A stretch of 64,000 bases of DNA from Rhizophagus irregularis. Lineage: Eukaryota. Position numbers and translations under genes: made by a program. Location of the stretch: NCBI RefSeq assembly GCF_026210795.1, contig NC_089429.1:6758001-6822000 (forward strand). The letters are read 5' to 3'. The notes below the pieces were generated by a model, which worked only from the letters and a program-made list of their open reading frames with translations, had not been told where the DNA came from and did not search any database. This document shows, one piece after another, positions 32,753 to 61,793 of this stretch (position 1 is the first letter of the stretch; each line of letters opens with the position of its first letter).

Positions 32753-33316
32753 CTATTCCAGATGATTGAATCCATCGTATGGAAGAATGTGAAATTCCCC
32801 ATCAGGATCCTTATAATTAAATATGATAATTTTATTATCATTATTAAAAAGCGTGCCTGTAGTATTTGACTGATCAGAATTTGGAAGTGTTTCGAGCATA
32901 GAGGATAGCATGGAGGATGGAAAGGGTAAAGGTAGTGGACGAGAAATAGATGGTGCTTTCGGAGGTTGGCCTGTTAATTCAATTTTAAACGAAGTTGTAT
33001 TTCTTAACTCATGAATTTCATGAACGCGTTTGGCTAGCGTTTTATATTCTTTTTTTTCTTCAGGGGTTGCATCATTCCATAATACACCGGCTGCTTTGCT
33101 TATTACACGCATATTACGGGTTCCTTTTCTGTTCGCCTCTTTGCAAACATTTCGTCTGAATATTAAGAATGAATTAAAAGGCCTTTTTGCTCTTGATCCA
33201 GTCGGAGCAACGAATGATTCAGGATCATTAAGTAATGGGGGGAAAATATTTTCCCTATTTAATCTCTTAATTAGAGATGTTGCCAAGGACTGCACTTGAA
33301 ATTTGATTTCTACCAT
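32753..33316 (-). CDS. HMG-box (MATA-HMG-type) transcription factor, 187 aa
   Basis: KRPFNSFLIFRR...NMRVISKAAGVLWNDATPEEKKEYKTLAKRV is a canonical HMG box. Confidence 0.9.
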   Translation of the reverse strand: MVEIKFQVQSLATSLIKRLNRENIFPPLLNDPESFVAPTGSRAKRPFNSFLIFRRNVCKEANRKGTRNMRVISKAAGVLWNDATPEEKKEYKTLAKRVHEIHELRNTTSFKIELTGQPPKAPSISRPLPLPFPSSMLSSMLETLPNSDQSNTTGTLFNNDNKIIIFNYKDPDGEFHILPYDGFNHLE

Positions 33317-45339: not shown

Positions 45340-45655
45340 TAGAGAGTTGAATTATCAGATGATGAATCTGATTCTTATTCTGATTATAAAGACTTTGATA
45401 ATTCTCTATTTTCAAGTTTTGCAGTACATCAAACTGCCAATGCAGACTATTCTCGTATTCTAATCCAATCCTCTTTTTCATCTTCAAATATAACTTTTAG
45501 AGCTTATTTTCCACCCTGGCAATTCTCTACAAAACTATTCAATTTGAAATCTTAATTTGATAAAGATATTCTTACCCAGTATCCATGTGTTCTATGTAGT
45601 TATTGTTCTCATTTACAATACCCAACAAAAGCAAGATGGGAGTTATATAATGACA
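45340..45655 (+). pseudogene. Decayed Helitron-like Rep/helicase ORF, 5' part (target of the 15-kb insertion)
   Basis: Frame ...YPCVLCSYCSHLQYPTKARWELYND continues in frame at 60696 once the element and one TSD are removed; one internal stop. Confidence 0.55.
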
Positions 45656-45658
45656 GTC

Positions 45659-46137
45659 GTCGGGCTGGTAGTGTGTCTCGCTAGCGCTCACCCCACCTCG
45701 GCCTCGTGGCCTCGCAGTACCTACATCTCCCCTTCATGGGGCAGGGTTACCCAAGATCCGTTACTATCTGTTACTACATCTGTTACTAAAAATATACTAA
45801 AAAACAGATAAAATAAGGAAAAAGAGAGGAAAATACGATAGAATCAGAAGGGAGTAACAGATGTAACAGATGTAACAGATATTTCAGAATAATAGGAGAG
45901 GACACCCCCTCAGAAAAAAGTTTTGATTTTACCCCCCAGATCTGTTACATTCGTTACGATCCGTTACTCTTTCAGGATTCCGTTCGTTATCTTATTGGAG
46001 GCAGTGAGATAACAAACCGAGTGAACAGGTAGGTTAATAACCCCTAGAAGGCCTGTAGATCTGTAGGAGGATAACCGGGTAGGAGCGCGGATCTTTGGAA
46101 AAAACATATTCGGCAATTGAAGATTAGGTAACTATAA
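45659..46137 (+). repeat. Left terminal inverted repeat (479 bp)
   Basis: Reverse complement of 60213-60690; by eye it differs by 3 transitions and a 1-bp indel in a C run. Confidence 0.97.
46115..46124 (+). promoter_or_regulatory. Candidate promoter motif AATTGAAGAT in the left TIR (mirror copy at 60226-60235 on the minus strand)
   Basis: The same or a similar motif lies ~28-52 bp upstream of seven element ORFs (see findings). Confidence 0.6.
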
Positions 46138-46166
46138 ATTAGATCCTGATTCGACAGAACGAAAAA

Positions 46167-48668
46167 ATGACCACTCAAGCTCAAGTTATCCCTAAATTCG
46201 GTGAACAAAAGAAAGCCTTCAGTATCGATGAGCTTAAACGGCTTATTGTCGCTGCAAAGAGTATAAGTGACCTCGATCAAGCCAAGAGGTATCTTTGCAG
46301 TTATTTCATTCCCTGTGCAGATCCTCATGGGGTTTTCTGGTGGGACCCGGATAGTAAAAGTTTGAAACACGTTATTGACAAAAATATTGGTAAACTTATC
46401 CGTCCAATCACGAAGGCATTCTACACACAACCTGAACAAGGACCCTCTCAAAAGACCGAGTTCAACATCTACAAGTGGTTTATGGTCGAGAATACCGATG
46501 TATGTAATGCAACCTGTGATCCCCATAAACAGCGAATCTTCAGATCCTTAACCGGCCAACTCTATCTAAATATCTTTCCGGGATTTCTCCACGTCTTGCG
46601 TCCAATATCCACCTTTGAGTCTACAATTCACCTCGCAGTTAAATTTATCTTCTCTCACATTCAGGAAATCTGGTGTTCGGGTGATTGGAATCTCACTGAG
46701 TATATCATCAAGTGGTTAGCCGGTGTGGCAGCTGGAAGGAAGATGTACTCGATTCTCTATCTAAAATCCGGACAGGGTTGGGGCAAAGGTATTATAACAG
46801 ATTTCATTCAGCGCAGCGTCCTAGGCACTCAACTTGTTTATAAGACCAGCGATCCTCAGACGATTCTTGGAAGTTTCAATGGGCAATTACAGGGTAAGGT
46901 TCTTCTTCTTCTCGAGGAAATGCCCACAGAAAAAAGCCAGTGGAATTCTCTGTATCGCTCTTTGAAAGATAAAGTAACGAGTGATATAATGGAAATCCAC
47001 GAAAAATACAAGACGCCAACACATTACAAAAACTTTATGTCAACTATCGTCCTTACTAACGAAAATGCTCTCAGAGTGGAGAATGATGATAGGTGCACAG
47101 TGTTCTTGGATGTGTCACCATCCCGCAAGGGAGACCTCAACTATTTCAAAAAACTCGGTGACGCTATGAAATACCCAGGCGCCAGTGAGGCGTTCTATGC
47201 TTATTTGAGAGCCATCGTGGATGCTTACCCAGACTTCAATGGAAATCCGCCACCTATGACAACATCCAAACAGGAACATATCATCTCAACTCTCCCACCG
47301 CTATTCCAATTTATAAAGGACACATACCTCGTAATGAAAAATTATATGACCGACCTGCCTGTTCAAGAATTTTATAGGGTATATACTTCATATTGCGAAA
47401 CACATTGTATTTCACCCTTATCAAAGATAAACGCTTCTAGAATCCTATCAAATGAGTTGGCTATAAATAGCAAATTAGTTCGTAAAGATAAGAAACTGAC
47501 CCGTGTCTATAGTATATCCAGGGAGGACCTTTACAAGAAATTCCTCGGAAAAAACTGGATTCATGAAATAGACGAGATAGACATAGAAGGAATAGATGTA
47601 GAGACTTCTAAGAAACCCGCATCTGATCCCAAAGCCTTAGAGAAGTTCTTGGCAAATATATATAGCATTCCTGCTAATAATCCACAAGACGTACAAAAGA
47701 AACTCGCTGAGAAAAAACCCGAACCCGCTGAGGAAAAACCCGCACCTGTAATTCGCAAGACTCCTCCACCGCTTCCACCCAAGCCTGACCACTTAAAAGA
47801 ACGTCAACAAGAGTTAAGGGAAGAACAACCGGATCCCGATGAAGATACTAATGAGTCAGACACCGATGAACCTATAGATAACTTCTCAGACTGTTATCTA
47901 TCTGACGAGGAACCTGACCAAGAAGAACCCACCCCTGAACCAGATGATGACTACGACGTCTTAGACAACTTGTTATCAGACTCGGATACTACAACTGTGG
48001 ACCCAACTCCTGAACAACAACCCGAATCTCCCGCAGAATCTTCTGCATCTGTCACTAAGCCTGACCCAGAACCGGCTCCTGAAGAGCAATTTATCCCAGA
48101 ACCCGACACAGAACCAGAAGTTGACCGGGATCCTGAACCAAAGGAAGGCACTCGAGCACATTGGGCTTGGCATGAAAGACACCGATGGGATCGCAAACCG
48201 TGGGTTAAAAATTCAAAAGACCAGGCCTTCGATGATCTCTACAATACAAGTAAGGAATTATGGGCCAAGTACCAAGACGCGTCAGACGAATATGACTGGG
48301 AAATACTCGCGTTTGAAATAGAGGAATGTCCCACAACGCGTATTGAGGACGAGTACCAGTACTACCTTATGGAGGTAGTAGACTGCTTCAAGGACTGGAT
48401 CGAATATAATGGATACTTACCTAAAATACCTAGCCGTAAAGAACTCGCAGATTTAATAAGAATATACAAGGATAATCGTGATGCCGAGATTATTCCCACC
48501 CCCTCTGGTTATGAAACTATGAGGGCAGATAAGGGTAAAGCGCGAGAGATCCCCGAGGAACGTCCAAAAACTGATATGGAACGTGAATGGGAAGCCGCCA
48601 ATGGACTCATCGATGACTGGGATGAAGAGGATCTTGATCGTGTATGCAGCAAGATTGACTCCTTTTAA
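46167..48668 (+). CDS. D5-like superfamily-3 helicase (primase-helicase family) with winged-helix-like region and long acidic/Pro-rich C-terminus, 833 aa
   Basis: Walker A SGQGWGKG, Walker B LLLLEE, motif C IVLTN, then ENDDRC (usually DRR). No AEP primase motifs recognised. Confidence 0.88.
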   Translation: MTTQAQVIPKFGEQKKAFSIDELKRLIVAAKSISDLDQAKRYLCSYFIPCADPHGVFWWDPDSKSLKHVIDKNIGKLIRPITKAFYTQPEQGPSQKTEFNIYKWFMVENTDVCNATCDPHKQRIFRSLTGQLYLNIFPGFLHVLRPISTFESTIHLAVKFIFSHIQEIWCSGDWNLTEYIIKWLAGVAAGRKMYSILYLKSGQGWGKGIITDFIQRSVLGTQLVYKTSDPQTILGSFNGQLQGKVLLLLEEMPTEKSQWNSLYRSLKDKVTSDIMEIHEKYKTPTHYKNFMSTIVLTNENALRVENDDRCTVFLDVSPSRKGDLNYFKKLGDAMKYPGASEAFYAYLRAIVDAYPDFNGNPPPMTTSKQEHIISTLPPLFQFIKDTYLVMKNYMTDLPVQEFYRVYTSYCETHCISPLSKINASRILSNELAINSKLVRKDKKLTRVYSISREDLYKKFLGKNWIHEIDEIDIEGIDVETSKKPASDPKALEKFLANIYSIPANNPQDVQKKLAEKKPEPAEEKPAPVIRKTPPPLPPKPDHLKERQQELREEQPDPDEDTNESDTDEPIDNFSDCYLSDEEPDQEEPTPEPDDDYDVLDNLLSDSDTTTVDPTPEQQPESPAESSASVTKPDPEPAPEEQFIPEPDTEPEVDRDPEPKEGTRAHWAWHERHRWDRKPWVKNSKDQAFDDLYNTSKELWAKYQDASDEYDWEILAFEIEECPTTRIEDEYQYYLMEVVDCFKDWIEYNGYLPKIPSRKELADLIRIYKDNRDAEIIPTPSGYETMRADKGKAREIPEERPKTDMEREWEAANGLIDDWDEEDLDRVCSKIDSF

Positions 48669-48751
48669 TAAGATAAGCACTTCTTAGTTATCTTATATTT
48701 TTTGTATAAAAAACCTATATTACAACTGAACACAATTCATAAATACATCAA

Positions 48752-50605
48752 ATGGTTTATTCAGAGATTGTCCGTGCTTTACCTACAAGACCGGATATCA
48801 AAGAATTACAGTATTCAGGCGCAAGATTTTCCAGAGGAGCAATAGCAAAACTTGGACAGCGACTCCAATCCCGGTATCCGACACATAAATTTCAGATCCT
48901 GCTCCCCTATGAAAACTGGAAACCCGGTGGATGGACATCAGGAAACCAACCAGCTAGCCTTTTCTCACTCTTGGATCACTACGACGAAGCACAACTACCG
49001 GATGACGCAGACCCTGATTATTTTGAACGATTCATAATTTATGTGAGAGATGCCCCACCGGTTGCAGGAGGTTGCAACGGGGAGCTAAATGATTGCCTGT
49101 ATGAATGCCTGAAATATATCTACGGCACATTCTCTAAAATGCCAAAGTCAATCGAAAAGCCCGAGTATATCAAAAAGGCATTAGGTCTCAATCGTGATGC
49201 TTCCATCCCAGTTTCATGCATGGACAAGGTTGAACAACTCGCAGGAAGTCTCGCAATTAATATTGTGGGGGACATTACCCGAATCTCTAAGAGTAAGTCC
49301 GATAGACGTGCGACTCTCATCCTGTCAGAAGGCCATTACTCCCTCGCGTTAAATCCCGGAAGACTCCACTCCAGTAAATTAGATAAAAAGCGTAATTTAC
49401 CCATTGTATACCATGAAGATGGGACCAATAATGTAGTCACAATATACAACGGCAAAACGGTTAAGTCTTGCACAATTGGGCAGTTTCAAAAAACTAAGAA
49501 TTCCAAGAGTTCTTTCATTCCCGTCGAGAAAAACCGTAAGACTGGGGTATATGAAACTCTCGAAGAAGCATATCAGAGAATCCACGAGGAGCAGAATTCC
49601 TTTCTACAGGAGACAAAGAAGTTCGGTTTAGGAATCGACTTATCATACCATAACTGGTCTTACAAAAGAACGGCTCTCTGGTTATTCGAACGATTAAGTG
49701 TAGGGATTCCAGCCAATGATCCTCTTGACCCGATAGAAGCAGAGTGGTTAAGTGATGCAATGATGGGAGGATTAATCTGGGCAGATAACGAGTGGAAGGG
49801 CTATGGAAGACAGTACGATGCAACAAGTTTATACCCGAGTATTCAACAATCGAATGCAAACTTTCCAATCAGACGGGGTAAATTCCAGACACTTAATGAC
49901 TTTGTTGACCACAGGGGTTATGCCTTGTATGGATTATTCCGTGCCAAGGTAAGTGGGAATAATATTCTCTTCTGACAGAATAAAAGGGGAATCTATACAT
50001 TCATCGACTTACAACGAGCAAAAAAACTTGGTCTCAATATACAGTTAATACAGGATGGGAAGCCAAATGCATTGATATATAATAGAGAAGCGAGAATCCC
50101 TGGAACTGTAATATTCGGTGAGTATGTACACTTCCTCTTCAAAATTAAAAACCAGGGTGGCGTAGCTGGCCGCGTGGCAAAGCGAGTCCTCAACACATTA
50201 TGGGGAGCATTATGCCAGAGGAAGCGTAATTACAAGACACTCACCGCAGATCAAACAGACCCGTTTACATTTCCAGAGGGCCATACACTCGACTCTATCA
50301 TACCAGTAGGATCTGACCAGTGGCGATTCCAGTTCACAAACCCGGGTAATCCCTTCAAAGGTGAGTATCCCAGGATCGCCCCATTCTTATTAGCACGTGG
50401 TCGCAAAATCACATCTGAGGCAATTCAACCATACAAGGATAAAGTACGACGTATCCATACGGATGGATTTATTTTAGAAGAGCAGCCAGATAGCCCCGCG
50501 CTTTTCACTTGTTCAGAGAATGCAGATATGACTCTAAAGACTTTCAAGTTTGAAACCGCGGGATACTGCCATGTGAAAAATGCGAACAAGGTTATCTGGA
50601 CATGA
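48752..50605 (+). pseudogene. polB: Family B DNA polymerase, protein-primed type (617 codons, one in-frame TGA at 49973-49975)
   Basis: ORFs 48752-49975 and 50072-50605 are in one frame separated only by TTC-TGA-CAG. Motifs: MMGG, YDATSLYPS (DxxSLYP), KRVLNTLWG (KxxxNxxYG-like), RIHTDGF (DTD-like). Confidence 0.88.
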
Positions 50606-50698
50606 TTGCTAAGAACTGGTAGGTTTATTTTTTACTGACATATCGTGATGGCATAATTGAATAAACCTATGGGATATGTAATCTTACGAGATACCCAA

Positions 50699-51193
50699 AT
50701 GCAAAACACCGACGGATTAGGTAGACAAGATGACGAAAGTTTCCACGCGTGGGCTAAGCGCATTCAGAATGCTGTGCAATATTATGAGACTTGTAGTAGA
50801 ATAGGTTTTCATAGGCGGCTACCTTATCCAAGGTCTCGTCAAGCTGTATATGCTTATATTGTGCACATTAGGAGAATAGTATCACGACTACCAAATAGGT
50901 GGTACTGTACCTACTGTAAATCTTTTATTGATCGCGGATGGGGAGCCGATGCTTCCATGGATCAAGCGGTACGACTACATTTATATAGTTGCCCAAAGCA
51001 TTTTAATTTCGACTATTATACTCATCATGCTGAAATGATCCAGAAAGCCTTTAGGAGATATATAGAAAGAAGGAACAATAAAGCGGCTAGGATTATCCAG
51101 AAAGTCGCTATCCCCTGGTTATATAGACCAGGCTCTCCATTGATACAAAAGGCCGAGCGACACTTCTACTGCCTCGCAGTATCCCAAGTGTAA
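50699..51193 (+). CDS. Hypothetical protein with Zn-finger-like CxxC..H..C and two IQ-like motifs
   Basis: YCTYCK...LHLYSCPKH; AEMIQKAFRRY and AARIIQK...WLYRPG. ATG 50699 chosen by spacing from the upstream motif (alternative ATG 50669). Confidence 0.7.
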   Translation: MQNTDGLGRQDDESFHAWAKRIQNAVQYYETCSRIGFHRRLPYPRSRQAVYAYIVHIRRIVSRLPNRWYCTYCKSFIDRGWGADASMDQAVRLHLYSCPKHFNFDYYTHHAEMIQKAFRRYIERRNNKAARIIQKVAIPWLYRPGSPLIQKAERHFYCLAVSQV

Positions 51194-51275
51194 ACCCCGA
51201 GGTTCATATTTATTTTTTCTCATTCGAATGAACAGGTAACTGAAGATTTATATTTTTTACAAAGTACAAAGAATC

Positions 51276-51746
51276 ATGTCAACATATACCGAATTCACAA
51301 GCATTGTTAACAGCACTGACAGCACTAGTGAGAAGGTTATTTACGAGGCATCGCGCATTCAGCCTAGTGTTATCTCTGACGAAACTGTCCCCAAGATTAT
51401 CCGCGCATTAAAAGATACTATAGTAGTCGCATTAGTATCTGGGTTTAGCAAAACCAGTTACCTCGTCCAGGACCACGTGAAGTATATCAAGCGAATCCAG
51501 ACGGCAAATTCTCCTGTATCATATGTGAAGTTCGTGGCCAGAAAACTCTTCCCAGATAATGCGGCATATACTGCTAAGATAGCAAAAATCCGCGAATCAT
51601 ACAAGAATAAACAAGCTCTCCTAGATAAGCTTGAGGCCCTCTTCGAATTGTATTATAATGCGACTAAGGACTCATCAACCGGTCCCCCAAAGCGAGCTAT
51701 TACTAAAAACGAGGCTGAGAAAACCTTAACAGAACTTCTTGCATAA
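51276..51746 (+). CDS. Hypothetical protein, 156 aa
   Basis: Intact ORF flanked by the element's upstream motif (51238) and TATTTTTT (51788); no family recognised. Confidence 0.75.
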   Translation: MSTYTEFTSIVNSTDSTSEKVIYEASRIQPSVISDETVPKIIRALKDTIVVALVSGFSKTSYLVQDHVKYIKRIQTANSPVSYVKFVARKLFPDNAAYTAKIAKIRESYKNKQALLDKLEALFELYYNATKDSSTGPPKRAITKNEAEKTLTELLA

Positions 51747-51855
51747 GCGGCTCCTGTGGTCCTACGATTCTGTATGAATTTAATCTATATTTTTTATCCA
51801 TGTGTAATAGGCATACAGTAATTGAAGATAGCTATAGTATAAGTAACATAACATC

Positions 51856-52248
51856 ATGTTGGACCAATTACCAGTAGAAATAGTCGAACGCATTGTCGCA
51901 AAGATCCCGGATACTGACCTTATTGCAGTGAGTAAGGTAGATAGAGTGTGGTGGCAGGAAGTTCGTCAAGAGGCATATAAGAGGTGGAAAAATTATGCCA
52001 CTACGATCGGGTATGTCCGAGCTCTTGGAAAGCCATTCGAAAAAGGGAATGTTGACTGGATAACATTTGAAGATGTAAACGACTTCTATAAAAGATGGAT
52101 AGACCGCCTCACCGAGGATCAGCTTTATATTATGGAGAAAATGCTTAGGAATGGGATGGTCGTGGACCCCCAAGAGAGGGAAACCATAGAGCATGCATTA
52201 AGTGAACATAGATGGGGAGGCGATCCTTGGGGACTGGGAGTGGTATGA
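51856..52248 (+). CDS. F-box protein, 130 aa
   Basis: N-terminal LDQLPVEIVERIVAKIPDTDLIAVSKVDRVW fits the F-box consensus LP.EI...I...L...DL.....V.R.W. Confidence 0.85.
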   Translation: MLDQLPVEIVERIVAKIPDTDLIAVSKVDRVWWQEVRQEAYKRWKNYATTIGYVRALGKPFEKGNVDWITFEDVNDFYKRWIDRLTEDQLYIMEKMLRNGMVVDPQERETIEHALSEHRWGGDPWGLGVV

Positions 52249-52741
52249 ATGGACTCAACAAAAGTAAGCATTTTGTACTTGACTTTCGTAGGAATTACCC
52301 TGCAGAGTCATATTTTTTAGATCCGGCCGGCATTACCGCGTAATCCCGAATTACCGAAAAAGGAAATTTATGTTACACAAGGTTCCAAACGCATTCTTAC
52401 CAAATCGATTTTTGTGGAACGGGTATCGCCCAAAAAGGAAATGATCTACGTACCGCATGAAATCACGTGACACTCTACACATTTGTTCAGGGTATCACGT
52501 GACATGAACTCCGTTCACATTTTCTGTAATATAATCCATAGTTTTCCATGAATGCTTTTTAGGCCAATAATCCAATAACTTATTCATCAGGTATCCTCGT
52601 GTTTTGCGACAAGGACTGATGACCATGTAACCTCATCATCAGGCATCCTCGCATTTTTTGACAAGGACTGATGACGATGTCACTTGGTTATTGTAAATTG
52701 AAGATAACAATTAGGTATGTAGACACGTACAGAAAAAAGAC

Positions 52742-53326
52742 ATGTCATACCCTTATATAACTAATCCTATAACCGGACGTCCAATCCGTGTTGGTGGAGA
52801 TACCTTTAATCGAATAGTTATGGAATCCCATGATTATATCGATGGAAGGCTTGTCCGTAGACAAACCGTACCGCCTCCACCCCAGGAACAACCTGTATAT
52901 TTAAATACAGATACAGGACGCTATATTCAACACGGTACTAGAACGTATCATAGACTGGTTGAGAGTGACTACGAGGTAGTTGAGGACTACTACCTTGTTC
53001 ATTCTGAAGAGGAGGAGCTTATAGAGGAAATCATCAATGAAACACGCTATAATGAGGAAAATCTTGATGGCCAGCGGTTAACTTTCAATGATATACAACA
53101 AATCAGGGCCGCTATTCAGGCTGACCAAGATGAATATGATGATTTTATCTTACAGCAAGATACGACTAATGGGACACCTTCCTCTGGTCCTTCCGGTCGT
53201 CCACGAACTTTGGAGGACCATACCCCGAGACTTGCAGAGCTTAATATTGAGTTGTGTAGGGAATGTCTCATGCCTGTAAGCCCAAGTGACTTAACGGACA
53301 AGTTGTGCAAGGACTGCGCTTCCTAA
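52742..53326 (+). CDS. Protein with two NPxTGRxI-type repeats (2-cysteine-adaptor-like) and a C-terminal CxxC..CxxC, 194 aa
   Basis: ITNPITGRPIRVGGDTFNRI and YLNTDTGRYIQHGTRTYHRL; LCRECL...LCKDCA. Confidence 0.7.
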   Translation: MSYPYITNPITGRPIRVGGDTFNRIVMESHDYIDGRLVRRQTVPPPPQEQPVYLNTDTGRYIQHGTRTYHRLVESDYEVVEDYYLVHSEEEELIEEIINETRYNEENLDGQRLTFNDIQQIRAAIQADQDEYDDFILQQDTTNGTPSSGPSGRPRTLEDHTPRLAELNIELCRECLMPVSPSDLTDKLCKDCAS

Positions 53327-53486
53327 TGGTCAGTCCTCCGGTCCTCCGGTCTTCCGGTCTTTCCAACGGTTGATCCCTTAATGCCAGTTATTTTTTTTTA
53401 TACAAATGACAGGTATTTAAAGATAACAATATATAAAAAAGATTGTGAAGGATACTAAGTGAGCGAATAATCAAAGAAAGATAGCC

Positions 53487-54038
53487 ATGTCAACATCAAT
53501 CATAATAAACCAGTGTCAGAACTGTGGAGTATTCTCTGCAAAAGCGGCATATAGAGGATTATCCAGCGTGTTGTATAGACAGATTATAAAGAAGATTGGT
53601 GACGAGAGTGAACCTTTACAAGCCTTGGGACTTGCCAGGGATAAGTTGGTCCAGATTATCCGTCGGGCAAGTAATGCGGATTTTACGCAATTATTCACAC
53701 AAAGACTAGATATGAAAATTATGGACGGAGATTCATACGAGGATACTAGGAAGTGGCTTCTTGAACAGCTTATAGCCATTGGATGTGACAGTGGGGAAAT
53801 TGCCTTATATCAGTTCTTACAGAATACATACCCGGATGGTATTGACGAACCCTTTACTACATTCTATGAGAACTATGTAAATCATGTAAGAAATCCGATG
53901 ACTAAGAACTTTGCTTCTCGAGCCTTAGGAACTATTGGATTAAAAGCTAGGATGCTACGGATTGACTTCGAAGGACGTAAAAAAAGTGCCATGATTCTTA
54001 GGGCTTCTGCGGAAGAACTTCGCGAGATGGGTTGCTAA
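53487..54038 (+). CDS. Hypothetical protein; C-terminal half resembles the post-ATPase (winged-helix-like) region of the element's own helicase, 183 aa
   Basis: LYQFLQNTY..FYENY..PMTKNFASRAL versus helicase LFQFIKDTY..FYRVY..PLSKINASRIL. Confidence 0.7.
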   Translation: MSTSIIINQCQNCGVFSAKAAYRGLSSVLYRQIIKKIGDESEPLQALGLARDKLVQIIRRASNADFTQLFTQRLDMKIMDGDSYEDTRKWLLEQLIAIGCDSGEIALYQFLQNTYPDGIDEPFTTFYENYVNHVRNPMTKNFASRALGTIGLKARMLRIDFEGRKKSAMILRASAEELREMGC

Positions 54039-55274
54039 AGCAGCCAGATTCTTACAAAATACTATGATCCCTACTCGTAATGCTCGACGGTCCATATGAC
54101 CCTTAGAAAAGATCTGTAAAAGGACCCCGATGCCTTCTATTAATTTTTTATTATCCAAAGGGTGACTAGACTTCAGGACTTCATATCGGGAGAATAACTC
54201 CTTTACGGTCTCAGGTTTTGGAATTTCAGTCTTCGTGGTCCTATCCCGTACTTTCGCTAAGAAGTTTTGGAAGTCTGATCCCAAGGTCTTACCAGATAGT
54301 CCGTAGGCTTCCCAAAAGACGTACTTAATCCAGGTATCTGCGTTCTTAGCTATAACACCAGATACGAGAAGGTGTTTTCTCTCTTTAGGCGATGGATATT
54401 CCCGAGCAAACTCGATTAGCTGGGAGGACTTTTTTGCTTCAGCTACGGCTTTCTGGCCATAGGAACTAAACTTTGATCGAACTGGGTTCAAACTCGGATT
54501 GAACTTTGATCGAACTGGGTTCAAACTCGGATCGAACGGGGATTGAACTGAGATCGAACTAGGATCGAACTGAGATTGATCGGTGATCGAACTGAGACTA
54601 GTATCCCATCTAACCCGAATAGATAACGGATCGCTCTTGGATCTTCTAAGATCAAATACTATAAATTCGCGTTGTAGAGTAAGGTCATCGATTACTGGAG
54701 CTAGTGACTCCGATTCTTCTGTATACTGGCGGATGATCCTCTTAGTATCGGTCAAACTTCCGTGACCTCCATGTAGGGAAATATAATTCACATTTTCACG
54801 AATAGCCTTGGGAATGGTAAAGAATCTTTGGGCCACATAGATACACGAGATATTTTTGTGACGCCCGTGTGTAAAAAATCCAGTGATGAGATCCTGGATT
54901 TTTTTAGGCGCATCCATCAAATCCTCGAAGATTACCACAGTAGCTTGGGTGGAGTTGAAGTCCTTAACATTTGGAATCTCACTATGGGATACTGCGGTAA
55001 ACGGAATTTCTTCTTCTTTGAAAAAATCACGTACGACTGCCCACTTTGGTTCATCGAGGTATCTGCCAACTAGAATTACCGCATCACATAATATGTACCT
55101 TTCGCCATCCTCCTTTGCCTTCTTGTCTCCCATTAACAAATTAATAATCATAGTTGTCTTACCCGAGTCAGAACTTCCTGCTACGGCAAGACGGAAAGGC
55201 CATGATGGGGCAAACTCATTACCCTGTCTCGAGTTGGTCGTGTACTCGTCCAAATTGTATACATAAAGATCCAT
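53955..55274 (-). CDS. A32/FtsK-HerA-type DNA packaging ATPase with C-terminal extension, 439 aa
   Basis: Walker A RLAVAGSSDSGKTT, Walker B VVIFEDL, and the GRHKNISCIYVAQ signature of poxvirus-A32/Polinton ATPases. Confidence 0.9.
   Translation of the reverse strand: MDLYVYNLDEYTTNSRQGNEFAPSWPFRLAVAGSSDSGKTTMIINLLMGDKKAKEDGERYILCDAVILVGRYLDEPKWAVVRDFFKEEEIPFTAVSHSEIPNVKDFNSTQATVVIFEDLMDAPKKIQDLITGFFTHGRHKNISCIYVAQRFFTIPKAIRENVNYISLHGGHGSLTDTKRIIRQYTEESESLAPVIDDLTLQREFIVFDLRRSKSDPLSIRVRWDTSLSSITDQSQFDPSSISVQSPFDPSLNPVRSKFNPSLNPVRSKFSSYGQKAVAEAKKSSQLIEFAREYPSPKERKHLLVSGVIAKNADTWIKYVFWEAYGLSGKTLGSDFQNFLAKVRDRTTKTEIPKPETVKELFSRYEVLKSSHPLDNKKLIEGIGVLLQIFSKGHMDRRALRVGIIVFCKNLAALATHLAKFFRRSPKNHGTFFTSFEVNP
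54469..54596. repeat. Intragenic tandem repeats in the ATPase linker (33-bp unit x2 plus GATCGAAC variants)
   Basis: AACTTTGATCGAACTGGGTTCAAACTCGGAT at 54469 and 54502; encodes the FDPS/FNPSLNPVRSK repeats. Confidence 0.85.
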
Positions 55275-55302
55275 TTGAATTTTATTCTAATTTAGTTTAA
55301 AT

Positions 55303-56010
55303 ATGATGTCGACACCAATTGCAATTTATACTCCTTCAGAGCCTACTGGACCGCCTCCTAGGGATTTGCGTGATATGAATAATATACCATTAGTTGCGGT
55401 AATTAAGGATCTAACAGATTTTTTAACTGTCAGTGATCGCATGGTTGTTAATCGAGATGTACAAAATGCAAACCATCGTCTTAAACATGCTCTTAATTTA
55501 TTAATTCATCGCTGTAGAGAAACATACGAAGAACGCGATATATTAAAAGCAGAACGTGATCGATCTCGAAAAGAACGTGATGAATTACAAGATGAACTCG
55601 AGGTTCAAACGGGTTTGTTAGGTCTTACACAAGATGAGCTAAATAACGTACAAGATACTATTACTAGTTTAGAAGCTAATTTGGCTGAATTGGAACGTGA
55701 GTTTGGTGGTATGCGGACGACTAATCGTCGTCTTCAGCAGCAATATAATCTTATGAGAGGAGAACGTAATAGAGCTATAGGTGAACGTAATAGAGCTATA
55801 GGCGAGCATGATGTGGCACGAAATCAGCTTGTATATGCCAATAATCGGGTTCTTTTTGGAATTCGGACATTGGGACGTCTTAGGAATCGACTTTTCCAAC
55901 AAATAGCCGCTCTGCGTATCCAAGTACAATGGTTTTGGATTAGACAATTGAACCTTCCTCCACCTCCTCTCAACCATCCACAAAATACGATATGGCTGCC
56001 GTTGGTATAG
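55303..56010 (+). CDS. Coiled-coil protein overlapping the start of gag, 235 aa
   Basis: Heptad-rich E/R/L segment, ERNRAIG 21-bp repeats, PPPP near the C-terminus; overlaps the gag ORF by 19 nt. Confidence 0.75.
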   Translation: MMSTPIAIYTPSEPTGPPPRDLRDMNNIPLVAVIKDLTDFLTVSDRMVVNRDVQNANHRLKHALNLLIHRCRETYEERDILKAERDRSRKERDELQDELEVQTGLLGLTQDELNNVQDTITSLEANLAELEREFGGMRTTNRRLQQQYNLMRGERNRAIGERNRAIGEHDVARNQLVYANNRVLFGIRTLGRLRNRLFQQIAALRIQVQWFWIRQLNLPPPPLNHPQNTIWLPLV

Positions 56011-57488
56011 CTGCCCCCATATTTCATGGTCGGGAAGATGAAGATCTTAATCTTTTTATTGATAACTTTTTAGGGTATATTAATACCGTTGGTATTGATC
56101 CATTGGACGATGCCGGTGCGCCTCCTGGTCGGGTGCGAGCGATGGGGGTTCTTCGTAGCTGTATGAGAGATGAAGCGGCGAGGTGGTTTGATGCAGAACT
56201 TACTGGAAAAAATTGGGAACTCTCGAATATTCGGTTAGTGGCTACTGCAAATGGTGGAGCCGGTGCTACTCGCCGAGCGTTCAGAGCTTTAGCTGTTCCT
56301 GAGGTTGCTAATGGATTACATGTTGGTACTTACTTACCCGGGTCTGATGCTGATGTATATTCAAGGGTTGCAGGTAATGCGGCGAGAACCGTTGGAGAGG
56401 CATTTTTCCCATCACGCGCTGATATCATTAGATCGAATTTTAAAGTTGAAGAGCAGTGGAGGCGTGCGGGCGGACGTCCTACTCATCAACCCGTTAATGG
56501 GTTGGGAAATCATGGAGGTCCATTTAATGCTGCTGTCCAGAATCAACCAATAGTCTTACAGGGGATTCTCCTGGATCAAGCATTTATGCATATGCGTACA
56601 AATTTTCCAACCATCGTGGAAGAAAGACTTCAGATACGATTTAGTAATCTTTACCAGGAACAAGGTGAACCTGTTCGATCTTACTATAAGCGAGTTGAGA
56701 GGGCTGGGGATATTGTAGGATATAATCGAATTATGGTTACTGACCAGTTCTATAGAGGACTTTTGCCGGAAAACGTTATTGAAGCTTCCAGAATCGGGGC
56801 GGCGCCTCTTAATATATTAATCGATAGATTGAGTGATCTTGAGCGATGAAAGGGTGAAATGTTCTATGGATTACAAAGGCGCCAGGGTATTGAAAAGGCT
56901 AAAAAAGAGGAATTGGCTGGCTATACTCATCCCGTGACTCCACACGAAGGTGCTGTAATACAAAGGTCGACAGACGTTATTACTCAAGAACGATTACAAG
57001 AATTGCTCAAGGCACAAGCCGAGGAACTTACCAAGAATTTCCAGGCACAATTTAAACAATTACAAGCATCTAAGCCAGTTCGTAAACCACCGGTCTATAG
57101 ACAACAGATTAAACCTGTTCGGCCAAAGCCACGGCCACGCGTTGTTCAGGATCCTCAGGATCCTGATTGGGATGATGGTTATGTAGATCATGATTTTGGT
57201 GATGACCCTGGTGACCCTGATGCTCCTGAGTGGACTAGTGAGGATGATCAACATGTTATTGATCTTATTATGGGATATGAGACGTCTAAAAGATTTCCAA
57301 AGAGACTTCAGAAGGCTAAAGATAGACGCGATGATCTGGAATTAGCCCGAGCAATGAGAAACCTCGATCTTAATGATGATGCTATGGATATTGATACTAA
57401 TACCGCGAGTTTTGATGACTTGAAAATTGTTCCCGATGAGGAAGGTGGTTTTCGGATTTGTGCGGTTCGAAGTACAAAAAAAAAGTAA
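55992..57488 (+). CDS. gag: Ty3/Gypsy-like Gag (capsid) protein, 498 codons with one in-frame TGA at 56847-56849
   Basis: CA-NTD-like APIFHGREDEDLNLFIDNF...LRSCMRDEAARWF; MHR/CTD-like LYQEQGEPVRSYYKRV...DQFYRGL. ORF 56859-57488 is in the same frame after CGA-TGA-AAG-GGT-GAA-ATG. No CCHC knuckle seen. Confidence 0.7.
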
Positions 57489-58207
57489 ACTCGGATAAGG
57501 GTGTAAGTATCTCGAAACTTCTTAAATCTGTTCCAAAAAAATCAGTTAAAATGACTCCTATTAAGATTCCTGTGAAGGTTACTAGTAGTAAGCCCACACT
57601 TATAAAAGCCGTCACCAAAAATGATTCATTAAGTTTATTAAGGTCTGCAGATTTTAGGAAATTACTCCGCGAGATTCTTCGGGAAGAATTAAAGTCTGCT
57701 CGTAAAAGTACGGAGATTCCGAAAGACCTAGTTGAGGAAAAACAAGAAGAGGATATCAGGGAAGATGACCCGATGGATATTGACATAGCTCGTTTAGAGA
57801 ATACTAAAGATCTTTTAGCGCTGGATGGGAAGGTTAATGGGATAGCAATTCAGTGTTTAGCAGACACTTGTGCTAACGCGTCTTTTATTCAGAGGGAAGC
57901 CGCTGAAGAATTAGGGTTGGATATCGACAAGAGTATTACACATAACATATCCGGCGCTCCGGGTTCTGGTAGGACATTCGGCATGGTAAAAGGTGTGTCA
58001 ATCAAACTAACCCCTGATTGTGTAATCACTGAGAATCTCGCGGTTTTAAGCGATTACAAGCATAGGGAGATTGGATTGAGCCGGACGTGTCTGAAACGTT
58101 ACAATTATGATGTCCATGAATCGCGTGAACATATCGCCCTTACTTGTAATGAGAAGAATGTTTTTATCCCGATAGTTTCTGATGTGAATCGAGGAGACAA
58201 AAAATAG
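57458..58207 (+). CDS. Retropepsin-like aspartic protease in the -1 frame relative to gag
   Basis: GKVNGIAIQCLADTCANASFI (hhD[TS]GA-like), flap-like ISGAPG and IGLSRTCL (hLG.D.L-like). No ATG at the ORF start; A9 run at 57476-57484 immediately before the gag stop. Confidence 0.8.
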   Translation: MCGSKYKKKVNSDKGVSISKLLKSVPKKSVKMTPIKIPVKVTSSKPTLIKAVTKNDSLSLLRSADFRKLLREILREELKSARKSTEIPKDLVEEKQEEDIREDDPMDIDIARLENTKDLLALDGKVNGIAIQCLADTCANASFIQREAAEELGLDIDKSITHNISGAPGSGRTFGMVKGVSIKLTPDCVITENLAVLSDYKHREIGLSRTCLKRYNYDVHESREHIALTCNEKNVFIPIVSDVNRGDKK

Positions 58208-58221
58208 GGAATATTTATTTT

Positions 58222-59312
58222 TTATTCCCAAAACTTGCGGATTAAGGCAGGGACATCCTCCTCCAACCGGTCAGCGGGTTCCCAAGTGGCTTCGGTATCT
58301 GGGTATCGTTCCCACTTGACTAGATACTGGTCTTGACCCTTCCTGATGCGATGCCGGAGTATCCGCTCAGGTACAAATCTTTCGGGTTGCCCTCTTATCA
58401 CGGAGTCAGGTGGGGGATGTTCATTTTCTGGAACAATCTGCAACTCTTTTCGGGTGTACGCACATCTGGATACACCTAGACGCCCGTGTGGTCCATCAAG
58501 AAGATACGTAGGAGGCTGTTCGGGTGAGAGGATCATTTTTTTGATGACACGGATATTGGGATTCCATCTTATGTCACCTGTACGAAATTTTCCATGGAGT
58601 TTATTCCTGAGTACTGAAATAGGTTCGTCTAACTTGACTCGGACATGTGTTCCTTCAGAGAGAAGTTCTGTCTTTTTTGACACTTTGGGTGACCCTGTCG
58701 GAATGTCTGGGGGATTTCTCTGCCAGATTTCATCTATTTTATTAACTACATCACGGAAATCTTCTGACCATTCCACGGATGTCACCCCAGTCTTCAACTC
58801 CTGTGCCACCATTCGTTTTAGGAGAGGTTCCTGGATTGCTTGGATGGCTCGTTCAGCGTATGATTGCTGTTTGTGTCTTCCTGGTTCGCCGAACCTCATC
58901 ATTACCCTAGGCTGTTCAGGAAAAAATCACGTACCTGGTCGTTAGTGAATTCTGATCCGGAGTCTGTCTCCAGTCTGTGTGTTGGTGGCTTAATACGATT
59001 TCTTCTGTAGATTTTGACAAACCCGTTTAGAACCCTATTTGCAGTCTTATCCTTTAGGGGTTCTGCATCGACTTGTTTACCCGCGACTTCCACCACTACG
59101 AGGAAATAGTGGAATCCTTTGGGGTCGACTGGCATCTCTGCAAGATCTGCCTGATGTGTTGCATTTGGTTTCCATACAACTACTCGTGGACGCTCTGATG
59201 ACTTCTCCTTTAAGGGCTTTTTATATAGGTTGTAGTGCTCCTCACCTTTTAGAATTCGTGCCGGTACTCTGGAGAGATTGTAGTATTTGTAGTAATTCTC
59301 TAAATGCGACAT
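58222..59312 (-). pseudogene. int: RVE (DDE) integrase with C-terminal chromodomain; 1-bp frameshift near 58905
   Basis: HQADL, YFLVVVE, AEPLKDKT, ETDSGSEF, QSYAERAI (D-D-E); chromodomain PERILRHR..QYLVKWERYPDTEATWEP. One extra G in CTA-GGG-TAATG would join the two ORFs (SLG-VMMRFG). Confidence 0.9.
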
Positions 59313-59356
59313 ATTACGACAAATTAAAGGAAAGATTTCGGACTTCAAATCTTAAG

Positions 59357-59677
59357 ATGACACGATTTTACTGCCTAAAGTGTAAGAAGGAAACCGAGAC
59401 TGCTAGTGAAATACAAGATATGACCACAAATGGCCGCTATCGTTTACATGGTGACTGTGTAGTTTGTGGGATGCATAAGAATACTTTTACTGGGATAGAC
59501 TGGGTTATCAAAAAGAAAACCAAGGAGAAGAAAAAAGAAACTGCGGCTAAAAGACATCAGACGGCGTACAATCGGCAATGCAAAAAACTCGGGCAGAAAA
59601 TCTTAGATTCTGATGACACGTGTAAGCAGTGTATTGATAAATGCCTTAAGGAGGCAAAAAAGAGGAAGACAGATTAG
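59357..59677 (+). CDS. Small basic Zn-ribbon protein (DUF5679-like), 106 aa
   Basis: MTRFYCLKCKKET...TTNGRYRLHGDCVVCG.HK; ATG at 59357 lies within the longer track ORF 59039-59677. Confidence 0.75.
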   Translation: MTRFYCLKCKKETETASEIQDMTTNGRYRLHGDCVVCGMHKNTFTGIDWVIKKKTKEKKKETAAKRHQTAYNRQCKKLGQKILDSDDTCKQCIDKCLKEAKKRKTD

Positions 59678-59686
59678 TACCGCCTT

Positions 59687-60202
59687 CTAAAAGTATTCCT
59701 CATCATCTGAGTCATCGAGAGATACCTCTCCATCATCTGATTCATCATCCGAGTCGTCAGGAGTGCGACCTTCCTTAAGCAATTGGATGTTGTATGTTAT
59801 TTGAGTCCATTTCTCCCAGTCAGACTCTTGCGTTATAAAGCCGCATCTGAGGAGTGCTCTTTCTATTACTACCATCCCTGCAAACCTGGTGTATTTTTTC
59901 TGATCGGCTTCATTGAAATTGTCAATGGCTTCTTTGTAGTAGTCTACTGCCTGTTTGTATACCTCTTCGGCTTCTTTATGCCGCTTCCACAACTCGGCTT
60001 TACAACAGTTATACCAGAGTCTGTTAATCTTGAGATGTTTTCCGAATTCTTTAACCGGAAGGTTTCTGACCATCTCTGCTACTATGTCCGGGTCATTGAG
60101 GGGTGATGCCTGAATTTGGATCCATTTACGGATTCCATAGATGTCTACAAGATCAAGCCCGAGGTCTTCGGCAAGAGAAGTGGCGGCGTGTAAGTTTATC
60201 AT
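59687..60202 (-). CDS. Second, divergent F-box-like protein with acidic tail, 171 aa
   Basis: LNDPDIVAEMVRNLPVKEFGKHLKINRLW resembles an F-box; starts 11 bp inside the right TIR boundary. Confidence 0.65.
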   Translation of the reverse strand: MINLHAATSLAEDLGLDLVDIYGIRKWIQIQASPLNDPDIVAEMVRNLPVKEFGKHLKINRLWYNCCKAELWKRHKEAEEVYKQAVDYYKEAIDNFNEADQKKYTRFAGMVVIERALLRCGFITQESDWEKWTQITYNIQLLKEGRTPDDSDDESDDGEVSLDDSDDEEYF

Positions 60203-60212
60203 TGTATGTTAC

Positions 60213-60690
60213 TTATAGTTACCTAATCTTCAATTGCCGAATATGTTTTTTCCAAAGATCCGCGCTCCTACCCGGTTATCCTCCTACAGATCTACAGGCC
60301 TTCTAGGGGTTATTAACCTACCTGTTCACTCGGTTTGTTATCTCACTGCCTCCAATAAGATAACGAACGGAATCCTGAAAGAGTAACGGATCGTAACGAA
60401 TGTAACAGATCTGGGGGTAAAATCAAAACTTTTTTCTGAGGGGGTGTCCTCTCCTATTATTCTGAAATATCTGTTACATCTGTTACATCTGTTACTCCCT
60501 TCTGATTCTATCGTATTTTCCTCTCTTTTTCCTTATTTTATCTGTTTTTTAGTATATTTTTAGTAACAGATGTAGTAACGGATAGTAACGGATCTTGGAT
60601 AACCCTGCCCCACGAAGGGGAGATGTAGGTACTGCGAGGCCACGAGGCCGAGGTGGGGTGAGCGCTAGCGAGACACACTACCAGCCCGAC
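60213..60690 (-). repeat. Right terminal inverted repeat (478 bp)
   Basis: Reverse complement of 45659-46137. Confidence 0.97.
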
Positions 60691-61793
60691 TGACACTATT
60701 CAATACCCTTTAGAGAAAGTTTACCAAAACAATCCACAAATTAAATTAGTTTTTCATACTGATGATTCTAAACCTAAGCAGATAGCAACATGTTCCTCTT
60801 GCTATAATCCTGTTCCAGCTGAAATTCAAAATGTACCTCCATATCACTGTATCTATCTTTCTTCTATTCATCTTAGCTGTTCATTAGGTCAAACTTCAAA
60901 TAGTAATGCTTATTCAAATTATCATCACTTAACTGGTACTTTTATTGATTTAAAAAATATCAATGCTTTTGCATTATATTCTGGTACTGTTGGTGCTATA
61001 TTAGCCAATAATAATTCAAATTCATGGTATCATTCTTCACTTAATAATGCAGCAACATGGTTATGTGATAATAACCCTTACTTCAGACCATATAAAACTT
61101 TAATTAACTGTGGTACTTGGGATGGACCTCCAGTCATTTTTCCAATTACTTTATCTAGCAATCTTTCTCAAACCCAAGAACAGCCTATATTTAATATTAA
61201 TTCTTGACCTTCTGCAGTAGTATTACCTCCTTATGATTTTGATGCAGAAATACATAATAAAGATTATTATTATTCTCAATTAATAGCAGGATTTTTAACT
61301 GATCCTAATAATAAGGAATTACCAATACCATTTTATAATAAAATATTAAACCACTTCTGTTTCCTGATCTTTTTCCATATAGAAAAGGTTTTTATTTAAA
61401 TGATAAAAATACAAATAGATGAAATTAGGGATGGCAATGGTCATGGTCATTAACCGGTTATGACCAGTCATGACCGTGACTGATATCGGACAGTCAAAGA
61501 CCTCTGACTGACCATTTGACCGACTGGTCTGTCGGTCAAAGGTTCTTGACCGGTTATGACTGACCGATGACCAACCATAACCGACCGTTGCCATCCCTAG
61601 ATGAAATATAGACACTTTAGGCAATTATGCAAAATTTTTACTACTTTGTCCTGATCCTAGATGGCGTTTATCTTGGTATTGGCCTCATTATATTTATCTA
61701 ACACTTGAAAAGTTAAGAAATCATCAAAATAGAACTTGAATATTAAATCAACATAATATTTCTCAATCAAATCAATTAACAACTGCAGATTTG
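60691..61793 (+). pseudogene. Decayed Helitron-like Rep/helicase ORF, continuation
   Basis: [12 protein letters not shown] (cf. ALxWLxxNNPxY), PLLFPDLFPYRKG (cf. FPxLFPxGxG) and CPDPRWR (cf. DxRF) occur in the order seen upstream of Helitron Rep domains; stops and frameshifts present. Confidence 0.65.
61426..61599. mobile_element. hAT-superfamily MITE (174 bp)
   Basis: TIR TAGGGATGGCAA(T)GGTC / GACC(G)TTGCCATCCCTA; 8-bp TSD GATGAAAT (61418-61425, 61600-61607); TGACC subterminal motifs. Confidence 0.93.

What the first reader, a model, noticed from the sequence alone, without database searches (positions are those of the whole stretch)
45656..60690. Polinton-like DNA element whose apparent capsid module is a retrotransposon Gag + aspartic protease
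Seen: one TIR- and TSD-bounded 15-kb unit encodes PolB, a D5-like helicase, an A32-type ATPase and an RVE integrase, plus a Ty3/Gypsy-like Gag and a retropepsin. It has no RT, RNase H or LTRs, and no ORF that I can recognise as a double-jelly-roll major capsid, penton or adenain cysteine protease. Known: Polintons/Mavericks, adintoviruses and virophages pair the A32-like ATPase with jelly-roll capsids, usually plus a cysteine protease; Gag + retropepsin is the particle module of LTR retroelements. Inference: this may be a chimeric class of self-synthesizing element or virus in which a Gag shell with its own maturation protease replaced the jelly-roll module, i.e. a DNA-replicating element in a retro-type particle. 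The gag-pro pair is on the strand opposite the integrase, sits head-to-head with the ATPase and ends with the element's own TATTTTTT motif, which argues against a passive nested LTR insertion. I cannot confirm novelty without a search.
Basis: partly seen in the sequence, partly recalled or inferred. Interest (0 to 1): 0.96.

Follow-up and report, generated by a model that had tools for sequence, protein, structure and literature searches.

The report
Fungal Polinton with retro-type capsid
A virus-like DNA transposon of root-symbiotic (mycorrhizal) fungi, described in print as having no detectable capsid gene, carries as a fixed part of itself a gene predicted to fold like a retroviral capsid protein plus a retro-type protease gene, and likely uses them as its particle shell in place of the usual jelly-roll capsid.

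Summary
Observation largely confirmed. 45656-60690 is one 15-kb Polinton/Maverick of Rhizophagus irregularis type: 479-nt inverted ends, and an empty site seen in two runs. It encodes a short vOTU-pPolB, an SF3 helicase, an A32 ATPase and an rve-chromo integrase. No RT or LTR is present, and no unassigned ORF is large enough for a double-jelly-roll capsid. ORF 55992-57488 is predicted to adopt the retroviral CA fold (the top 36 structural matches are all retro-type capsids). The coiled-coil/Gag/protease block is integral. It sits beside the ATPase and integrase in independent runs and diverged copies, shares short contigs with PolB, and has dN/dS of about 0.25. Its Gag clade also occurs in Entrophospora and Acaulospora. 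That clade lacks the zinc knuckle (0 of 34, against 9 of 18 in the sister clade), and most members end in a lysine run that suggests a -1 recoding site into the protease. Particles are not shown, and the protease motif is atypical. Prior art: the element is known and listed as capsid-less, and a 2021 figure legend labels retroviral Matrix/Capsid/NC/Pro genes on a MELD-related element, probably this family, without discussing it. Verdict: a real, under-described capsid swap.

The parts
45651..45655 (.). left target-site duplication TGACA (5-bp register; a 3-bp register also fits)
   Evidence: empty site in X1 and X2
45656..46140 (.). left terminal inverted repeat, about 480 nt, starting with a short GTC repeat
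46167..48668 (+). SF3 (D5-like) helicase, 833 aa, with Walker A/B and a long acidic low-complexity tail; no primase domain hit
48752..50605 (+). short protein-primed PolB (617 codons): N-terminal domain, vOTU protease (about 107-204), reduced exonuclease region, palm motifs A/B/C; internal stop at 49973-49975 in this copy
50669..51193 (+). small ORF, IQ-like motif (weak)
51276..51746 (+). small ORF, no family hit
51856..52248 (+). small ORF, F-box-like N-terminus (weak, E 0.018)
52742..53326 (+). small ORF with 2C_adapt motif (E 0.001) and C-terminal CxxC pairs
53487..54038 (+). small ORF, no family hit
53955..55274 (-). A32/FtsK-type packaging ATPase, Walker A/B and GRH motif intact, with C-terminal extension
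55303..56010 (+). coiled-coil protein, head-to-head with the ATPase, overlapping the Gag start by 19 nt
55992..57488 (+). Gag-like protein (498 codons): predicted two-lobed CA (about 1-285) with a large insertion in the N-lobe, no CCHC knuckle, ends in KKK; internal stop at 56847-56849 in this copy
57476..57484 (+). A9 run at the Gag end, candidate -1 recoding site into the protease frame
   Evidence: no stimulatory hairpin found
57440..58207 (+). retropepsin-type aspartic protease frame (stop to stop), -1 relative to Gag, catalytic motif DTC instead of DTG
58222..59312 (-). rve integrase with D, D, E residues and a C-terminal chromodomain; frameshift near 58904 in this copy
59357..59677 (+). 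DUF5679 zinc-ribbon ORF
59687..60202 (-). small helical/acidic ORF, no firm family hit
60206..60690 (.). right terminal inverted repeat
60691..60695 (.). right target-site duplication TGACA

Best explanation
This is a multi-copy Polinton/Maverick of arbuscular mycorrhizal fungi with no gene large enough for a jelly-roll major capsid; it carries a conserved coiled-coil + Gag-like + aspartic-protease block that likely serves as its particle module. Shown: the anatomy, the linkage of the block to the ATPase and integrase, purifying selection on Gag, and absence of the zinc knuckle in this Gag clade. Predicted: the CA fold. Inferred: (1) the element is copied as linear DNA by a vOTU-pPolB with a reduced exonuclease, working with the separate SF3 helicase (the mavirus-type arrangement), and is inserted by the rve-chromo integrase; (2) Gag is made in excess and Gag-Pro at a low rate by -1 recoding at the A-run; (3) the CA lobes assemble a retro-type shell that holds element DNA rather than RNA, filled or organised by the retained A32 ATPase, and used to shield and move the DNA-integrase complex between the nuclei of the shared fungal cytoplasm or between fused hyphae.
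For: Fold: AlphaFold2 model pLDDT 80. VIA-align against 48161 chains: rows 1-36 are all retroviral, retrotransposon or Arc/PNMA CA (best Z 9.8, 143 residues, rmsd 4.4; Ty3 N-lobe Z 6.5; first unrelated row Z 4.4). Foldseek PDB rows shown are lentiviral CA (best E 0.012); BFVD ranks 1-13 are Gag; best PDB sequence hit is the PEG10 CA C-lobe (E 0.006). Integral: contigs bridge protease-integrase in X2, X6, X9 (records 15, 24, 32) and in a diverged X3 copy (44 differences in 318 nt). L002 joins ATPase, coiled coil and a Gag 85% identical. 7 of 12 NCBI contig lengths of 10-100 kb listed for PolB clusters equal one of 24 listed for Gag clusters, including the Gag subfamily at 45% identity (indirect). 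Selection: Gag dN/dS 0.28 and 0.23 against L001 and L002. Breadth: 378 clusters at 50% identity; clade A includes Entrophospora candida and Acaulospora morrowiae proteins. CCHC in 0 of 34 clade-A rows with tails of 150 aa or more, against 9 of 18 in clade B. Junction: 16 of 22 and 11 of 16 stand-alone homologues end in a KK/KKK/KKR run, and four runs bridge the A9 site without gaps. No jelly-roll room: largest unassigned ORF 194 aa, largest gap 493 nt. PolB is 617-648 aa in 34 of 34 aligned relatives, with vOTU and palm motifs conserved; Krupovic 2024 describes the same TP-vOTU-palm plus S3H plan for mavirus.
Against: No particle, expression or binding evidence. Foldseek gave no match at E<=0.001, and Z 8-10 is middling for helical domains. 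The protease has DTC in place of DTG, and the second Gly motif is also replaced, in 107 of 109 sequences matching the pattern, so it may be inactive or unusual. No stimulatory structure follows the A9 run (z 0.07 and 0.83), and public gene models bridge the junction with a predicted intron instead. Linkage of Gag to PolB is shown only for R. irregularis-like copies; for the diverged metagenomic and other-genus Gags no DNA context could be fetched. No relative was found among IMG/VR viral contigs. I know of no A32-type ATPase shown to fill a Gag shell (recalled). The PolB palm was modelled poorly (pTM 0.38).
Confidence: 0.58

Rival explanations
1. The Gag-Pro block is integral but does not package the genome. 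It works as a scaffold, an integration-targeting factor, or a dominant-negative restriction factor against the host's LTR retroelements, as other domesticated CA domains do.
For: No zinc knuckle; atypical protease motif; domesticated CA proteins, including a Ty1-derived restriction factor, appear among the structural matches.
Against: Both CA lobes are retained with a large conserved insertion; the Gag-to-protease frame junction is conserved; the block sits head-to-head with a motif-intact packaging ATPase; nothing else in the element could be a capsid.
Confidence: 0.25
2. Gag-Pro is the remnant of an LTR retrotransposon that inserted once into an ancestral copy and is carried passively.
For: A sister clade of Glomeromycota Gags keeps the zinc knuckle and a DTG protease, as a retrotransposon donor would. 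Nested retrotransposons are known in endogenous virophages (PMC8547959).
Against: No LTR, RT motif or second duplication; dN/dS about 0.25; two Gag subfamilies 45% identical share contigs with PolB; the block ends with the element's own motif.
Confidence: 0.05
3. The element depends on a helper: its DNA is packaged by, or replicated alongside, a giant virus or another capsid-bearing element, and Gag has an accessory role.
For: The replication module resembles that of mavirus, a virophage. A giant endogenous viral region in R. irregularis is recalled, not from a call.
Against: No relative in IMG/VR; Mavericks are among the recently expanded families in R. irregularis (PMC8647823); no helper is in evidence here.
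Confidence: 0.07
4. Gag packages element RNA, and a host LTR reverse transcriptase copies it in trans, giving the element a second, retro-type route.
For: A Gag-Pro layout with a frame junction is typical of RNA-packaging elements; Gypsy elements are present and expressed in the host.
Against: No zinc knuckle, no LTRs, bidirectional genes and 480-nt inverted ends that a transcript would not regenerate.
Confidence: 0.05

Closest known systems
Glomus intraradices (Rhizophagus irregularis) Polinton/Maverick, Kapitonov and Jurka 2006 and Pritham et al. 2007 (originals not held; seen only as cited in PMC7805220, PMC11296320, PMC11952901)
   Same: Same host species by protein hits, with pPolB and rve integrase; reported as having no detectable MCP and as expanded in Glomerales. 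Very likely the same family; sequence identity to the Repbase entry was not tested.
   Different: The passages read do not mention a Gag or a retropepsin; here the missing capsid position appears to be filled by a retro-type CA.
'MELD virus-related element' in Fig. 5 of Starrett et al. 2021 (PMC8502044; legend and section 3.4 read, figure not visible)
   Same: The legend lists Matrix/Capsid/NC/Pro similar to retroviral Gag and retropepsin, and a D5-like S3H, among elements with adintovirus-like PolB; Rhizophagus PolB is named in the Fig. 3 legend.
   Different: 'gag' occurs once in the main text, with no analysis of fold, linkage, selection, frame junction or range. That the labelled element is the Rhizophagus one is my inference. 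No zinc-knuckle NC was found here.
Animal Polintons/adintoviruses (Polintoviricetes)
   Same: TIRs, vOTU-pPolB, rve-chromo integrase, A32/FtsK ATPase.
   Different: No room for a double-jelly-roll MCP; no penton or adenain hit; PolB about 620 aa with a reduced exonuclease region; separate SF3 helicase.
Mavirus-like virophages
   Same: TP-vOTU-palm PolB with exonuclease remnant, separate S3H, rve integrase (PMC11161782 passages).
   Different: No virophage jelly-roll capsid; no helper virus in evidence; fungal host.
LTR retrotransposons (Metaviridae, Ty3/Gypsy) and domesticated Gags (PEG10, Arc, PNMA)
   Same: Predicted two-lobed CA, retropepsin downstream in another frame, chromodomain integrase.
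   Different: No RT, RNase H, LTR or zinc knuckle; integrase on the opposite strand as a separate gene; large insertion in the CA N-lobe; DTC protease motif.
Bidnaviridae (capsid replacement in a pPolB lineage)
   Same: Precedent for a Polinton-type polymerase paired with an unrelated capsid.
   Different: There the partner is a parvovirus-type capsid with ssDNA; here it is a retro-type CA, and ATPase and integrase are kept.

Membership tests
Polinton/Maverick | protein-primed PolB | tested here: met
   DNA_pol_B_2 in 21 of 34 relatives; motifs A/B/C in 33, 34 and 34 of 34; phi29 polymerase is the top, non-significant Foldseek row; vOTU Z 6.8
Polinton/Maverick | rve integrase | tested here: met
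   PF00665 E 1.8e-7, chromodomain E 5e-18; D, D, E motifs located
Polinton/Maverick | long terminal inverted repeats | tested here: met
   479 nt, 99.2%
Polinton/Maverick | 5-6 bp target-site duplication and AG..CT ends (recalled) | tested here: inconclusive
   5-bp TGACA with GT..AC ends, or 3-bp with AG..CT ends; the empty site fits both
Polinton/Maverick | A32/FtsK packaging ATPase | tested here: met
   Pox_A32 E 2.9e-10; motifs intact
Polintoviruses/adintoviruses | double-jelly-roll major capsid protein | tested here: not met
   by size: largest unassigned ORF 194 aa, largest gap 493 nt with stops in all frames; no Pfam or PHROG capsid hit
Polintoviruses/adintoviruses | penton and adenain maturation protease | tested here: inconclusive
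   no profile hit among the small ORFs, but they were not folded
LTR retrotransposon (Metaviridae) | Gag with CA fold | tested here: met
   (predicted model)
LTR retrotransposon (Metaviridae) | retropepsin with D[TS]G | tested here: inconclusive
   Asp_protease_2 E 3.2e-8; Ddi1-like PDB hit E 0.015; motif is DTC
LTR retrotransposon (Metaviridae) | reverse transcriptase and RNase H | tested here: not met
   no Pfam hit in 18 ORFs; no YxDD-type motif in six frames; no unassigned room
LTR retrotransposon (Metaviridae) | long terminal direct repeats | tested here: not met
   self-comparison of 53900-59400 shows only the tandem array in the ATPase gene; none
Mavirus-like virophage | exonuclease-reduced pPolB with separate S3H and rve integrase | tested here: met
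   about 125 aa between vOTU and palm with no invariant DxE; S3H; compared; no phylogeny run
Mavirus-like virophage | virophage jelly-roll capsid | tested here: not met
   no ORF of that size
Mavirus-like virophage | dependence on a giant virus | not testable with these tools
   needs infection experiments

The most novel reading that the evidence does not exclude
These elements are a chimeric virus class of mycorrhizal fungi: a linear, protein-primed dsDNA genome with no reverse transcription step, pumped by an A32 ATPase into a shell of retroviral-type capsid protein matured by its own retropepsin. That would join the Polinton replication and packaging machinery to the virion of retroelements and resolve the long-noted missing capsid of the fungal Polinton.
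Probability: 0.33. Interest if true: 0.95.

Novelty: new variant of a known kind. Interest (0 to 1): 0.8.

Why it matters
The Glomus/Rhizophagus Polinton is a standing example of a 'capsid-less' Polinton, one whose MCP was still not found in 2021. If its structural module is a Gag shell, that question has a testable answer, and a retro-type capsid would be shown serving a genome that replicates DNA to DNA. The known retro-type capsids that hold DNA belong to reverse-transcribing viruses (recalled). It also predicts a DNA-carrying particle in globally important plant symbionts, where Mavericks are recently expanded and often lowly methylated. A Gag shell filled with 15 kb of DNA would be a new kind of natural delivery container.

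Tried and rejected
No whole genome is held for the window, so copies could not be counted. The single metagenome scan, run with one sequence, gave only two short loci. Six scans of IMG/VR gave no true relative; L004 and L005 matched only 43 residues at 35% and L004's ORFs look like those of a tailed phage. The prokaryote-genome hit L003 is spurious, lying in an unrelated bacterial ORF. The ESM Atlas did not complete. The complex prediction of Gag copies was not run, so there is no verdict on self-assembly. The second VIA look at Gag was not run. RNA: X20 gave 4 contigs, none over the junction; X17 is only guessed to be RNA and listed no joint; so splicing against recoding is untested. No RNA structure beyond shuffles follows the A9 run. 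Depth is similar over gag-pro and the other genes in four runs, but the tool warns that this is no copy number, so it was not counted as evidence. X18, X19 and X20 hold small shares and were not used for host or habitat. A resemblance by eye of the tail of clade-B protein P0495 to a Maverick-type integrase end was not supported by BLASTP. PDB sequence searches with PolB found nothing useful. Groups A and B were read off the first tree, so the shuffle statistic is circular; only the zinc-knuckle counts are used. The tree kept 78 rows with at least 200 profile positions, out of 141 later hits and 25 earlier proteins, and is midpoint-rooted, so it gives no direction. Earlier scan notes: nothing bearing on this. 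Papers not held: Kapitonov and Jurka 2006, Krupovic and Koonin 2015. The supplement of PMC8502044 was cut before its accession table, so the element behind the Fig. 5 labels is not identified.

Full report
1. The unit. GC rises from about 0.27 in the left flank to 0.40-0.46 in the element's genes. The ends are inverted repeats of 479 nt at 99.2% identity, flanked by TGACA. Contigs of two public runs join 45650 to 60691, skipping 15040 nt: the empty site. The joint fits a 5-bp duplication with GT..AC ends or a 3-bp one with AG..CT ends. All 120 listed hits of 191 for the Gag-like protein are named Rhizophagus irregularis, and 20 of 24 listed runs hold the stretch or part of it. So this is a young insertion of a multi-copy element of a mycorrhizal fungus.

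2. Replication and integration genes. The first ORF is an SF3 helicase. PolB is short in the whole family: 617-648 aa in 34 of 34 aligned relatives, which I chose as full-length rows out of 120 listed of 162 hits. Residues 107-204 match OTU proteases (Z 6.8, rmsd 2.9, 85 residues), with invariant Cys and His. Palm motifs A, B and C are present in 33, 34 and 34 of 34. Only about 125 residues separate the two domains, with no invariant DxE. The palm model is poor (pTM 0.38). Krupovic et al. 2024 (PMC11161782, passages) describe this TP-vOTU-palm plan with a separate S3H for mavirus. The integrase is rve with a chromodomain, and the ATPase is A32-type with intact motifs. This copy has a stop in PolB, a stop in Gag and a frameshift in the integrase; other copies are open at the Gag and integrase positions, and full-length PolB relatives exist.

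3. No jelly-roll. After assignment the largest free ORF is 194 aa and the largest gap 493 nt, too small for a double-jelly-roll capsid (size recalled). Pfam and PHROG give no capsid, penton or adenain hit. The small ORFs were not folded, so a penton or adenain is not excluded.

4. The Gag. A 24-row alignment gave a model of residues 1-285 with pLDDT 80. Against 48161 solved chains, rows 1-36 are all CA domains of retroviruses, Ty3, Copia, Arc, PNMA, PEG10 or MOAP1. The best has Z 9.8; both lobes are matched (Ty3 N-lobe Z 6.5, C-lobes Z 9-9.7 at rmsd about 2); the first unrelated row has Z 4.4. Foldseek agrees in rank but gives no E<=0.001. By sequence, the family profile's best PDB hit is the PEG10 C-lobe (E 0.006), and Retrotrans_gag matches 17 of 23 members. 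About 120 residues inside the N-lobe are not aligned to known N-lobes and contain invariant residues; I infer an inserted domain.

5. Integral, not nested. There is no direct repeat and no RT motif. Protease and integrase are joined tail-to-tail in X2, X6, X9 and in a copy with 44 differences in 318 nt. ATPase, coiled coil and Gag are joined in metagenome locus L002 (Gag 85% identical). Of 12 NCBI contig lengths of 10-100 kb listed for PolB clusters, 7 equal one of 24 listed for Gag clusters, among them the subfamily at 45% identity. This is indirect, and only the longest contig of each cluster is shown. Gag dN/dS is 0.28 and 0.23 against L001 and L002; the coiled coil gives 0.48. TATTTTT follows 7 of 11 plus-strand ORFs, the protease included.

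6. The wider family. A profile search found 378 clusters at 50% identity, 150 listed. A tree of 78 CA rows splits 52 against 26 with support 97/97. Clade A holds this element and proteins from Entrophospora candida and Acaulospora morrowiae; it has no CCHC in 34 rows with long tails, and its proteases read DTC or DSC. Clade B (Rhizophagus, Entrophospora, Diversispora) has CCHC in 9 of 18, often a fused coiled coil, and DTG or DSA proteases. None of 22 and 13 long proteins scanned carries an RT domain, but their DNA context is unknown: clade B may be LTR donors or other Mavericks. Linkage to PolB is shown only for R. irregularis-like members of clade A.

7. The Gag-protease junction. The protease lies in the -1 frame behind an A9 run just before the Gag stop. 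Four runs bridge it without gaps, so it is no error of this copy. 16 of 22 homologues end in KKK or KKR, and 11 of 16 further representatives, picked for reaching the end of the profile, end in a KK run. That points to a conserved slippery site. Against: no downstream structure, and public gene models use a predicted intron here; the RNA data at hand did not decide. Both glycine motifs of the protease are replaced in 107 of 109 matching sequences, so activity is open.

8. Mechanism. Most likely (0.58) the block replaced the jelly-roll module and builds a retro-type shell for the element's DNA. The absence of the RNA-binding knuckle, the retained ATPase next to it and the lack of any other capsid candidate point that way; each step beyond gene content and predicted fold is inferred. 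The main rival (0.25) is a non-packaging role. Passive nesting (0.05), helper dependence (0.07) and an RNA route (0.05) are unlikely.

9. Prior art. Bellas and Sommaruga 2021 (PMC7805220, passages) list the Glomus intraradices Polinton as having no detectable MCP. A 2026 preprint (10.64898/2026.06.19.733378, passages) places Glomus and Rhizophagus ATPases near Polintons and has no occurrence of 'gag'. PMC11952901 and PMC8647823 (passages; one supplement search) report Maverick expansion in Glomerales without Gag. Starrett et al. 2021 (PMC8502044, passages and section 3.4; preprint passages) has a figure legend with Matrix/Capsid/NC/Pro and S3H labels; the figure was not visible and the supplement was cut. 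PMC4409740, PMC11296320, PMC10120064, PMC4028283, PMC5751038 and PMC8547959 were searched by term only. Nine answered library searches listed no paper whose title or abstract start treats this gene combination; subscription papers and Repbase are outside the library.

10. Verdict. The feature is real and is a Polinton by its replication, integration and end structure, but it fails the jelly-roll test for polintoviruses and the RT and LTR tests for LTR elements. It was probably drawn once in print and, in what I could read, never analysed. New variant of a known kind; interest 0.8. If DNA-filled Gag particles exist (0.33), interest 0.95.

Noticed in passing
window 45548-45655 and 60696-61207: The element appears to have inserted into a longer reading frame that continues on both sides; it looks by recall like a Helitron-associated protein, but has no Pfam hit.
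   Followed up: partly
window about 13000-17500, minus strand: Fragments that look like a degraded non-LTR retrotransposon (RT-like and RNase H-like pieces, strong GC skew); no match to any stored element protein.
   Followed up: partly
window 32756-33340 (-) and 24599-25348 (+): An HMG-box gene (PF00505, E 8e-8) and a similar-looking ORF without a Pfam hit.
   Followed up: no
window 62863-63331: Nested palindromes (157-nt arms at 89%, a perfect 31-nt hairpin) next to a short ORF that looks like a Tc1-type transposase fragment (recalled; no Pfam hit).
   Followed up: no
window 54468-54599: An 11-nt tandem array (8 copies) lies inside the ATPase gene, between the ATPase domain and its C-terminal extension.
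   Followed up: no
L001:1-620: The coiled-coil gene is of the second subfamily while the Gag is of this element's subfamily, suggesting recombination between element families at the coiled-coil/Gag overlap.
   Followed up: partly
P0495 (Entrophospora sp. SA101 gene model, clade B): A zinc-knuckle Gag fused in the gene model to a C-terminal endonuclease domain (PHROG HNH/homing endonuclease, E 2e-11); clade B may itself belong to Maverick-like elements rather than LTR elements.
   Followed up: partly
window 45656-45662 and 60684-60690: The left end has one more GTC unit than the right end, as expected of the short terminal repeats used in protein-primed initiation (recalled).
   Followed up: no
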